This document shows positions 7,330 through 7,348 of a stretch of DNA of 21,669 nt, in pieces. Below the pieces are notes generated by a model that had not been told where the DNA came from, did not search any database, and saw nothing but the letters and a program-made list of their open reading frames with translations. Source of the DNA: a virus (Duplodnaviria; Heunggongvirae; Uroviricota; Caudoviricetes). Location of the stretch: the IMG/VR virus record IMGVR_UViG_2529293061_000008. One strand, given 5' to 3'. The position numbers and the translations under genes are program-made. Within the stretch, counting starts at the first letter, position 1. The number at the start of each line of letters is the position of its first letter.

Positions 7330-7348
7330 AAAGCGGGCAGGCGTGGCG
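7330..7348. other. Probable cos cohesive-end sequence GGCGTGGCGGGGATACGAG
   Basis: First 13 nt match the P2/186 cohesive-end sequence as I recall it (GGCG(A/T)GGCGGGGA...); sits between the right-end genes and the left-end portal gene. Confidence 0.5.

What the first reader, a model, noticed from the sequence alone, without database searches (positions are those of the whole stretch)
7330..7348. Probable cos site places the cargo island at the extreme left end of the virion genome
GGCGTGGCGGGGATACGAG matches the start of the P2/186 cohesive-end sequence as I recall it. If this is cos, the cargo kinase pair lies between cos and the portal gene, and the tum/dinI pair is the last right-end unit. 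The direct repeat CTGGCGTC (7145-7152 and 7164-7171) and the terminator lie just upstream.
Basis: partly seen in the sequence, partly recalled or inferred. Interest (0 to 1): 0.35.

Follow-up and report, generated by a model that had tools for sequence, protein, structure and literature searches.

The report
P2-family prophage cos packaging site
The sequence is almost certainly the DNA-packaging cut site (cos) of a P2/186-like prophage, with a small candidate anti-phage gene pair inserted right after it; both the site and this insertion spot were already known for this phage family, so the finding is correct but ordinary.

Summary
The 19-mer GGCGTGGCGGGGATACGAG is real, but it lies at 7340-7358, not 7330-7348. 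It sits inside window 7311-7365, which matches the 55-bp cos core shared by P2 and P4: 43/55 identities to 186, 41/55 to P2, 42/55 to P4. That is the only such match in the window (shuffles reach at most 32/55). The 19-mer is identical to the annotated cos of Salmonella phage SEN8, whose record ends one base before it.

In 58 species-level enterobacterial prophages, a block of about 150 bp (7214-7365) is conserved, and identity falls to background on both sides. Relatives with different cargo diverge 6-7 bp after the 19-mer.

The cargo (7511-9162, about 40% GC) is a HipA-like kinase plus a HIRAN-domain protein (PADLOC candidate system PDC-M03), not a kinase pair. It lies between cos and the portal gene, so by the P2/186 convention it is the first unit at the virion's left end. 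A LexA-box/orf62/DinI-like unit is the last unit at the right end.

The cos-to-portal slot is a published hotspot (Dodd & Egan 1996; Nakayama 1999; Rousset 2022). No virion ends have been determined experimentally for this cos type. Verdict: interpretation supported, already known, low interest.

The parts
6644..6659 (+). LexA-box-like CTGT-N8-ACAG upstream of the last right-end transcription unit
   Evidence: Single match in the window. It occupies the same position as the LexA site at p95 of phage 186.
6703..6891 (+). orf62, a small ORF of unknown function and first gene of the presumed SOS unit
   Evidence: phrog_698, unknown function, E = 3.6e-38. No Pfam hit. No BLASTP similarity to 186 Tum. 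Annotated as hypothetical in relatives.
6902..7135 (+). DinI-like gene, the last ORF before the virion right end
   Evidence: Pfam DinI, E = 6.6e-23. 41% identical to residues 71-145 of 186 Tum. phrog_189.
7138..7180 (+). Hairpin directly after the dinI stop codon; its arms contain the two CTGGCGTC copies (7145-7152, 7164-7171)
   Evidence: RNA fold of 7136-7200: -23.5 kcal/mol, z = -2.1, no T run after it. Motif positions.
7214..7262 (.). Conserved pre-cos block with an array of TGCATG/CGCATG (7216, 7229, 7239) and GATC (7236, 7244, 7255) motifs; possible extended terminase-recognition element (inference only)
   Evidence: Conservation rises from background at about 7214 in 58 loci. The motifs are enriched and conserved while the spacers between them vary.
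7268..7294 (+). Rho-independent terminator hairpin about 50 nt before the cut, ending right-end transcription
   Evidence: -23.4 kcal/mol, z = -4.6. The stem is conserved, loops vary, and there are a few compensatory stem variants among 54 distinct sequences.
7303..7316 (.). Inverted pair CATGCA-GG-TGCATG overlapping the start of the cos core
   Evidence: Sequence read directly. Also present in 186 and P4 but only half present in P2.
7311..7365 (.). 55-bp cos core, homologous to the region shared by P2 and P4
   Evidence: The P2 = P4 identity block is 29 + 19 + 7 nt. The window matches 186/P2/P4 at 43/41/42 of 55, is the unique best match in the window, and shuffles reach at most 32. The 55-bp core concept is taken from PMC5694545, PMC9594776 and PMC3931495.
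7340..7358 (+). 19-nt cohesive-end sequence. Inferred nicks are at 7339|7340 (top strand) and 7358|7359 (bottom strand), giving 5' overhangs
   Evidence: Exact single match. Identical to SEN8 'putative cos site' at positions 1-19. The nick positions are inferred by analogy with the 186 annotation. The exact 19-mer occurs in 35 of 70 prophage loci between gpA and gpQ.
7366..9196 (.). Variable cos-to-portal cargo slot
   Evidence: Homology to relatives carrying other cargo ends at about 7365 and resumes only within the last codons of the portal gene. GC is 0.38-0.46, against 0.50-0.57 in the phage backbone.
7401..7429 (+). Sigma-70-like promoter candidate for the cargo operon (TGGACA-17-TATCAT)
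   Evidence: Consensus scan, 10/12 matches. This is a consensus-level match only.
7511..8425 (+). Cargo gene 1: HipA-like kinase, PDC-M03A
   Evidence: PADLOC PDC-M03A, E = 2.1e-122. Pfam HipA_C is weak (E = 3.6e-4, below the curated cutoff). phrog_8728. PGAP names it 'HipA domain-containing protein' in some E. coli records.
8422..9162 (+). Cargo gene 2: HIRAN-domain protein, PDC-M03B
   Evidence: PADLOC PDC-M03B, E = 6.8e-93. Pfam HIRAN, E = 1e-13.
9166..9195 (.). Bidirectional terminator hairpin between the cargo stop codon and the portal stop codon
   Evidence: -21.0 kcal/mol (+ strand, z = -8.6) and -20.4 kcal/mol (- strand, z = -7.8), flanked by A and T runs.
9197..10237 (-). Portal gene (gpQ homologue)
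   Evidence: Pfam Phage_portal. Annotated as portal in relatives.
10234..12000 (-). Terminase large subunit (gpP homologue)
   Evidence: Pfam Terminase_6N, Terminase_6C and Terminase_5.
14055..14705 (+). Terminase small subunit (gpM homologue), the presumed cos-recognition protein
   Evidence: Pfam Phage_term_smal, E = 5.2e-40.

Best explanation
Window 7311-7365 is the cos core of a 186/Fels-2-like member of the P2 family (Peduoviridae) that is integrated as a prophage. 7340-7358 is its 19-nt cohesive-end sequence.

Inferred mechanism, by homology with P2 and 186:
1. After induction and replication, terminase (gpM small subunit, gpP large subunit) recognises cos.
2. It nicks the top strand between 7339 and 7340 and the bottom strand between 7358 and 7359.
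3. One genome length is packaged through the gpQ portal.

The linear virion DNA would therefore begin at 7340. The cargo operon (own promoter candidate at 7401-7429, genes at 7511-9162, own bidirectional terminator) is its first unit. The genome would end at 7339, with the LexA-box/orf62/DinI-like unit and a terminator as its last unit.

The cos module (about 7214-7365) is a fixed island between two variable cargo slots. The left slot starts 6-7 bp after the cohesive end, exactly where the P2/P4 55-bp core ends.

Shown here: sequence identity and homology, position, conservation boundaries, and the presence of the packaging genes. Inferred: the cleavage positions, the packaging function, expression of the cargo, and its defensive role.
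For: - The exact 19-mer occurs once in the window, at 7340-7358.
- It is identical to the SEN8 cos feature, and the SEN8 record ends at the base equivalent to window 7339.
- It aligns with the annotated cos of 186, P2 and P4. The 55-bp core scores 43/41/42 of 55, the best match in the window is unique, and shuffles reach at most 32.
- A single such motif lies between gpA and gpQ in 70 prophage loci drawn from one genome per species, and the exact 19-mer occurs in 35 of them.
- Conservation is confined to about 7214-7365 and drops to background on both sides.
- E. coli relatives with the same cos but SEFIR, DUF262 or Ymh cargo diverge 6-7 nt after the 19-mer.
- At least 120 IMG/VR contigs carry the exact 25-mer, and 112 of them encode P2-like markers.
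- gpQ, gpP, gpO, gpN, gpM and gpL are present and read as full-length ORFs.
- Literature: the 55-bp core is the standard criterion for assigning P2-family cos sites. The cos-proximal gpA-gpQ region is a defence hotspot. The cosL-Q position has been proposed as a hotspot. In phiCTX, the ctx gene lies between cosL and Q.
Against: - No experimental virion-end data exist for this sequence type. The SEN8 cos was assigned during annotation.
- Positions 14, 16, 17 and 19 of the 19-mer differ from 186, and these plus position 5 differ from P2. The exact nick positions therefore rest on analogy.
- The window does not show the whole prophage, so its inducibility and completeness are unknown.
- No P4-like satellite carrying this exact cos type was found, so that independent line of functional evidence is missing.
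Confidence: 0.9

Rival explanations
1. The sequence is a true cos homologue but sits in a defective or cryptic prophage that no longer packages DNA, so there is no virion and no 'left end' in practice.
For: Only 21.7 kb of the element is visible. Integrase, att sites and the distal tail genes were not examined. P2-like remnants are common in enterobacterial genomes (established knowledge).
Against: The cos core is intact. Its 19-mer is identical to that of a plaque-forming phage, SEN8, and to 35 of 70 prophage loci. gpQ, gpP, gpO, gpN, gpM, gpL, gpA and the CI/CII regulators all read as full-length ORFs with strong family matches.
Confidence: 0.05
2. The region is cos, but in this lineage the nicks or the overhang length differ from the 186/P2 model, so the ends are not exactly at 7340 and 7358.
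For: The last seven bases of the 19-mer vary by lineage: ATACGAG, CTACGAG, GTACGAG, AAAGCAT. phiCTX has a 21-nt cohesive end. No end sequencing exists for the ATACGAG type.
Against: The bases flanking both inferred nick sites are the most conserved of all...AAAGCGGGCA|GGCGTGGCGGGG and ...|CGCGCG. They align without gaps to 186, P2 and P4.
Confidence: 0.04
3. The resemblance to the P2/186 cohesive end is a chance match in a G+C-rich stretch.
Against: A 55-bp match of 43/55 compared with at most 32/55 in 200 shuffles. BLAST hits to phage cos regions at E values down to 1e-79. The motif recurs at a conserved position in 70 loci.
Confidence: 0.005

Closest known systems
cos of coliphage 186 (NC_001317, positions 1-19 plus the right end) and of P2/P4, i.e. 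the 55-bp core of Ziermann & Calendar 1990
   Same: A 19-nt G+C-rich cohesive-end sequence starting GGCG(T/A)GGCGGGG. The flanks TGCAT(G/T)AAAACC...AAGCGGGC(A/G) and (C/T)GCGCG(C/T) match. It has the same position between the right-end accessory genes and the portal gene, and a hairpin lies upstream as in 186.
   Different: Positions 14, 16, 17 and 19 of the cohesive end differ from 186 (ATACGAG instead of AAAGCAT). Upstream of the core there is a lineage-specific conserved block with TGCATG and GATC motifs that P2 lacks. In 186 and P2 only about 180-195 bp separate cos from the portal gene; here the distance is 1.84 kb.
Salmonella phage SEN8 (NC_047753, Felsduovirus) putative cos site
   Same: The 19-mer is identical and the flanks are nearly identical. 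Cargo genes also lie between cos and the portal gene.
   Different: SEN8 carries a different cargo there (a hypothetical protein plus an HNH endonuclease). Its cos was assigned by annotation, not by experiment.
cos-proximal defence hotspot of P2-like phages (gpA to gpQ; Rousset et al. 2022) and the cosL-Q slot (Dodd & Egan 1996 retrons Ec67/Ec86; Nakayama 1999 phiCTX ctx)
   Same: Foreign, low-GC genes with their own promoter and terminator lie between cos and the portal gene. Content varies among otherwise homologous phages.
   Different: The occupant here is PADLOC candidate system PDC-M03 (HipA-like kinase plus HIRAN protein), rather than a retron, ctx or old/tin. In P2 itself, old and tin lie on the other side of cos.
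P4-like satellite hotspot adjacent to cos
   Same: In 80 P4-like loci the sequence diverges 7 nt after the 19-mer. This is the same junction as window 7365/7366, and the cargo is on the same side of cos.
   Different: The satellites sampled carry P2/186-type cohesive ends (AAAGCAC, AGAGCAT) and never ATACGAG. None carries PDC-M03.

Membership tests
P2-family (Peduoviridae) cos site | A 19-nt G+C-rich cohesive-end sequence beginning GGCG(A/T)GGCGGGG | tested here: met
   GGCGTGGCGGGGATACGAG at 7340-7358. It matches 186 at 15/19 and is identical to the SEN8 cos.
P2-family (Peduoviridae) cos site | The 55-bp core shared by P2 and P4 (29 nt before the cut, the 19-mer, and 7 nt after it) | tested here: met
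   Window 7311-7365 matches at 41-43 of 55 without gaps. It is the unique best match in the window, and shuffles reach at most 32.
P2-family (Peduoviridae) cos site | Located between the replication/right-end accessory genes and the portal gene, with portal and large terminase transcribed towards cos | tested here: met
   gpA at 4126-6549 (+), cos at 7340, gpQ at 9197-10237 (-), gpP at 10234-12000 (-). The order is the same in 186 and P2 and in 70 loci.
P2-family (Peduoviridae) cos site | Cognate terminase (gpP, gpM) and portal genes present | tested here: met
   Pfam matches for gpP and gpQ and for gpM, gpO, gpN and gpL.
P2-family (Peduoviridae) cos site | Staggered cleavage giving 19-nt 5' overhangs on virion DNA | not testable with these tools
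   This requires virion DNA end sequencing. No published end determination was found for the ATACGAG type.
P2-family (Peduoviridae) cos site | Sufficient in cis for packaging or transduction of a plasmid | not testable with these tools
   This requires a cosmid transduction assay.
cos-proximal (cos-to-portal) cargo hotspot of P2-like phages | Gene content varies between conserved flanks among related phages | tested here: met
   Different cargo follows the same cos in E. coli relatives. The cos-to-Q distance exceeds 500 bp in 59 of 70 loci (range 116-6482 bp) and in 75 of 84 IMG/VR contigs.
cos-proximal (cos-to-portal) cargo hotspot of P2-like phages | Cargo has foreign composition and its own transcription signals | tested here: met
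   GC is 0.38-0.46, against 0.50-0.57 in the backbone. There is a promoter-like site at 7401-7429 and a bidirectional terminator at 9166-9195.
cos-proximal (cos-to-portal) cargo hotspot of P2-like phages | Cargo acts in anti-phage defence | tested here: inconclusive
   Both genes match PADLOC candidate system PDC-M03 strongly. 'PDC' denotes a candidate system, and the one paper that mentions it was not read.
186-type SOS operon (p95-tum-orf97) | LexA box upstream of the unit | tested here: met
   CTGTAAATATAAACAG at 6644-6659 is the only CTGT-N8-ACAG in the window.
186-type SOS operon (p95-tum-orf97) | A Tum antirepressor homologue | tested here: inconclusive
   The DinI-like ORF is 41% identical to the C-terminal half of Tum. 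orf62 shows no similarity to the N-terminal half and belongs to a PHROG of unknown function.

The most novel reading that the evidence does not exclude
The conserved block of about 95 bp upstream of the 55-bp core would be a lineage-specific, cosB-like recognition array for the small terminase subunit. The block holds three TGCATG-type motifs at 10-13 bp spacing, two conserved GATC sites, a hairpin, and the CATGCA-NN-TGCATG inverted pair. If so, the functional cos of 186/Fels-2-like phages would be about 150 bp long and strongly asymmetric, with about 125 bp on the right-end side and only about 7 bp on the left-end side. It might also be sensitive to the phage's own Dam-type methylase (2436-3350). 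This asymmetry would explain why cargo can be exchanged flush against the left side of cos.
Probability: 0.3. Interest if true: 0.35.

Novelty: already known. Interest (0 to 1): 0.15.

Why it matters
The result fixes the virion map of this prophage. The cargo operon is the first unit, starting 171 nt from the left end, and the SOS-type unit is the last. It also gives base-level boundaries for the cargo slot (7366 to about 9196).

More generally, the published gpA-gpQ hotspot turns out to be two slots separated by a cos module of about 150 bp. [quoted passage not shown] That is useful for mining defence systems and for designing minimal packaging signals. It does not change what is understood about P2-family packaging.

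Tried and rejected
1. I looked for independent functional support from P4-like satellites carrying the same cohesive end. None of at least 120 IMG/VR contigs with the exact 25-mer was P4-like. None of 80 Psu-anchored P4-like loci had the ATACGAG type. This is neither for nor against, because only close Psu relatives were sampled.

2. I could not obtain Ziermann & Calendar 1990 or the Christie & Calendar P2 review. I therefore reconstructed the 55-bp core from the P2 and P4 records and from secondary citations. I make no claim about packaging direction or which end enters the capsid first.

3. The ORF at 7223-7429 (- strand, 68 aa) that runs across cos was considered and rejected as a gene. It has no family match. 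Its 5' part lies in the cargo-specific variable DNA.

4. The consensus scanner did not report either of the two strongest hairpins. I confirmed them by folding instead.

5. I considered CTGGCGTC x2 as a functional direct repeat. The two copies lie in opposite arms of one hairpin. The 8-mer occurs 5 times in the window against 0.75 expected, which I did not pursue.

6. PDB sequence searches with both cargo proteins gave nothing significant.

7. PDC-M03 was not found in the sampled P4-like hotspots.

Full report
**Observation.** The 19-mer GGCGTGGCGGGGATACGAG occurs once in the window, on the + strand at 7340-7358. This is ten bases to the right of the coordinates given. The two CTGGCGTC copies are at 7145-7152 and 7164-7171, as stated. 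A strong hairpin followed by a T run lies at 7268-7294.

**Is it the P2/186 cos?** I took the ends of the reference records and rebuilt their circular junctions.
- Phage 186 (NC_001317) annotates positions 1-19 as cos, "top strand cut at 5' end and bottom strand cut at 3' end". The sequence is GGCGTGGCGGGGAAAGCAT.
- P2 (NC_001895) annotates cosL and cosR as GGCGAGGCGGGGAAAGCAC.
- P4 starts with the same 19-mer as P2.
- P2 and P4 are identical over 29 nt before the cut, the 19-mer itself, and 6 of the next 7 nt. This is the "55-bp core" of Ziermann & Calendar 1990, which later papers use to assign cos in P2-like phages.
- That 55-mer aligns without gaps to window 7311-7365, with 43/55 identities to 186, 41/55 to P2 and 42/55 to P4. 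On either strand, 7311 is the best-scoring position in the window. The best score in 200 shuffles was 32.
- Salmonella phage SEN8 (Felsduovirus) annotates exactly this 19-mer as its "putative cos site" at positions 1-19. Its record ends at the base equivalent to window 7339.
- The SEN8 paper says the site was identified during annotation, so it is not an experimental end determination.

**Context.** On the right-end side of cos:
- gpA replication protein at 4126-6549;
- a LexA-box-like site at 6644-6659;
- a 62-aa ORF at 6703-6891;
- a DinI-like gene at 6902-7135.

On the left-end side of cos:
- two cargo genes at 7511-8425 and 8422-9162;
- the portal gene at 9197-10237 and the large terminase gene at 10234-12000, both transcribed towards cos;
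- the gpO, gpN, gpM (small terminase) and gpL genes.

The immunity region is of the 186 type, with CI and CII/CP76. By the P2/186 convention, the virion DNA would run from 7340 through the cargo, the head genes and onward to gpA and dinI, ending at 7339.

**The module and its boundaries.** I anchored on the portal protein and collected 80 loci from a collection holding one genome per species.
The exact window 19-mer is present in 35 of them.
- In 58 enterobacterial loci aligned on the 19-mer, per-column identity rises from background (about 0.4) at about 7214. It stays at 0.8-1.0 through 7365, then falls back to about 0.35.
- E. coli relatives with the same cos but SEFIR, DUF262 or Ymh-domain cargo diverge 6-7 nt after the 19-mer, right after CGCGCG(C/T).
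- Other relatives carry extra genes between dinI and the conserved block: a hypothetical protein, ASCH plus a restriction endonuclease, or SIR2 plus an ATPase.
- cos is therefore an island of about 150 bp between two variable slots.
- The cos-to-portal distance has a median of 1673 bp and exceeds 500 bp in 59 of 70 loci. It is 300 bp or less in 11, like 186 and P2. The gpA-to-cos distance ranges from 484 to 4390 bp.
- An independent sample of IMG/VR contigs carrying the exact 25-mer gave the same picture: cos-to-portal exceeds 500 bp in 75 of 84.
- On the portal side, conservation resumes only inside the last few codons of the portal gene. Each cargo cassette brings its own terminator.
- In 80 P4-like satellite loci, sequence also diverges 7 nt after the 19-mer, on the same side of cos.

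**The cargo.**
- Gene 1 matches PADLOC PDC-M03A (E = 2e-122). Its Pfam HipA_C match is weak and below the curated cutoff.
- Gene 2 matches PDC-M03B (E = 7e-93) and Pfam HIRAN (E = 1e-13).
- It is therefore a HipA-like kinase plus a HIRAN-domain protein, which is a candidate defence system rather than a kinase pair.
- Its GC content is 0.38-0.46, against 0.50-0.57 in the phage backbone.
- A promoter-like site lies at 7401-7429. A bidirectional terminator lies at 9166-9195.
- The full arrangement covers at least 80% of the 3.7-kb query in 20 complete E. coli genomes. The best matches cover 100% at 98.8% identity. It also occurs in one other species-level locus (L019).

**The right-end unit.** The DinI-like protein is 41% identical to the C-terminal half of 186 Tum. 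The 62-aa ORF has no detectable similarity to Tum and belongs to a PHROG of unknown function. The "tum/dinI pair" is therefore better described as a LexA-box unit of orf62 plus a DinI-like, Tum-C-terminal-like gene. The two CTGGCGTC copies lie in opposite arms of a hairpin right after the dinI stop codon.

**Comparison with what is known.**
- Rousset et al. 2022 describe the cos-proximal gpA-gpQ region of E. coli P2-like phages as a defence hotspot with 1,650 gene arrangements. A 2026 study confirms this on thousands of elements.
- The cosL-to-Q position specifically was proposed as a hotspot by Dodd & Egan 1996 (retrons Ec67/Ec86 replacing DNA between cos and a terminator of a 186-related prophage) and by Nakayama 1999. 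I take these as cited in PMC5694545.
- In phiCTX, the ctx toxin gene lies between cosL and Q.
- The finding is therefore correct, and it is a routine instance of a known site and a known hotspot.

**What remains inferred.** The nick positions, the packaging function, the inducibility of this prophage, and the expression and function of the cargo are all inferred. I found no experimental end determination for the ATACGAG type. I also found no satellite carrying it.

**Most novel reading not excluded.** The roughly 95 bp upstream of the core hold a conserved array: TGCATG-N7-CGCATG-N4-CGCATGATCG-N5-GGATCG, then the hairpin, then CATGCA-GG-TGCATG.
- The GCATG count is 4 in 130 nt, against 1.25 per kb across the window.
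- Across the 58 loci, the median is 5 GCATG/CATGC motifs per 130 nt before cos, and 45 of them have two GATC sites.
- The spacers between the motifs vary while the motifs stay.
- P2 lacks most of this array.
- It may be an extended terminase-recognition element. That is untested.

Noticed in passing
window 7214-7262 and 7303-7316: A conserved array of TGCATG/CGCATG motifs (7216, 7229, 7239) and GATC sites (7236, 7244, 7255), plus the inverted pair CATGCA-GG-TGCATG at 7303-7316. The motifs are kept in 58 species-level loci while the spacers between them vary. This looks like a protein-binding array on the right-end side of the cut. P2 lacks most of it.
   Followed up: partly
window 2436-3350: The phage encodes a D12-class (Dam-type) N6-adenine methyltransferase in its early operon. 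Together with the conserved GATC pair next to cos, this recalls methylation-dependent pac cleavage in P1 (from my own knowledge). No test was made.
   Followed up: no
window 9166-9230: Across relatives, the variable cassette includes the portal operon's terminator, and conservation resumes only inside the last few portal codons. Each cargo brings its own bidirectional terminator, and the extreme C-terminus of the portal protein is not conserved.
   Followed up: partly
window 6644-6891: A LexA-box-like site (CTGTAAATATAAACAG) precedes a 62-aa ORF (phrog_698, unknown function) that sits where the antirepressor half of 186 Tum would be. It is a candidate SOS-controlled antirepressor with no detectable similarity to Tum.
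   Followed up: partly
loci L014-L093 (cos 19-mers): The first 12 nt of the cohesive end (GGCGTGGCGGGG) are nearly invariant. The last 7 nt vary by lineage: ATACGAG in 35 loci, CTACGAG in 13, GTACGAG in 5, and AAAGCAT and others more rarely. P4-like satellites sampled carry AAAGCAC or AGAGCAT types only.
   Followed up: partly
L009 (about 940-1900), L010 (about 900-3000), L013 (1-2500): E. coli relatives with the same cos and the same PDC-M03 cargo carry additional, different genes in the other slot, before cos: a hypothetical protein, ASCH plus a restriction endonuclease, or SIR2 plus an ATPase. The two slots therefore vary independently.
   Followed up: partly
L166 3441-3465 (-) and 6704-6728 (+): One metagenomic viral contig holds two cos modules in inverted orientation about 3.2 kb apart, each with its own dinI and portal gene, and no gpA between them. 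Identity between the two copies is limited to about -135..+26 around the cut, which mirrors the module boundaries seen in the window. This may be an assembly chimera or two prophages joined right end to right end.
   Followed up: partly
window 7145, 7164, 14994 (-), 15309, 18554: The 8-mer CTGGCGTC occurs 5 times in the window against 0.75 expected from shuffles. The three copies outside the dinI hairpin were not examined.
   Followed up: no
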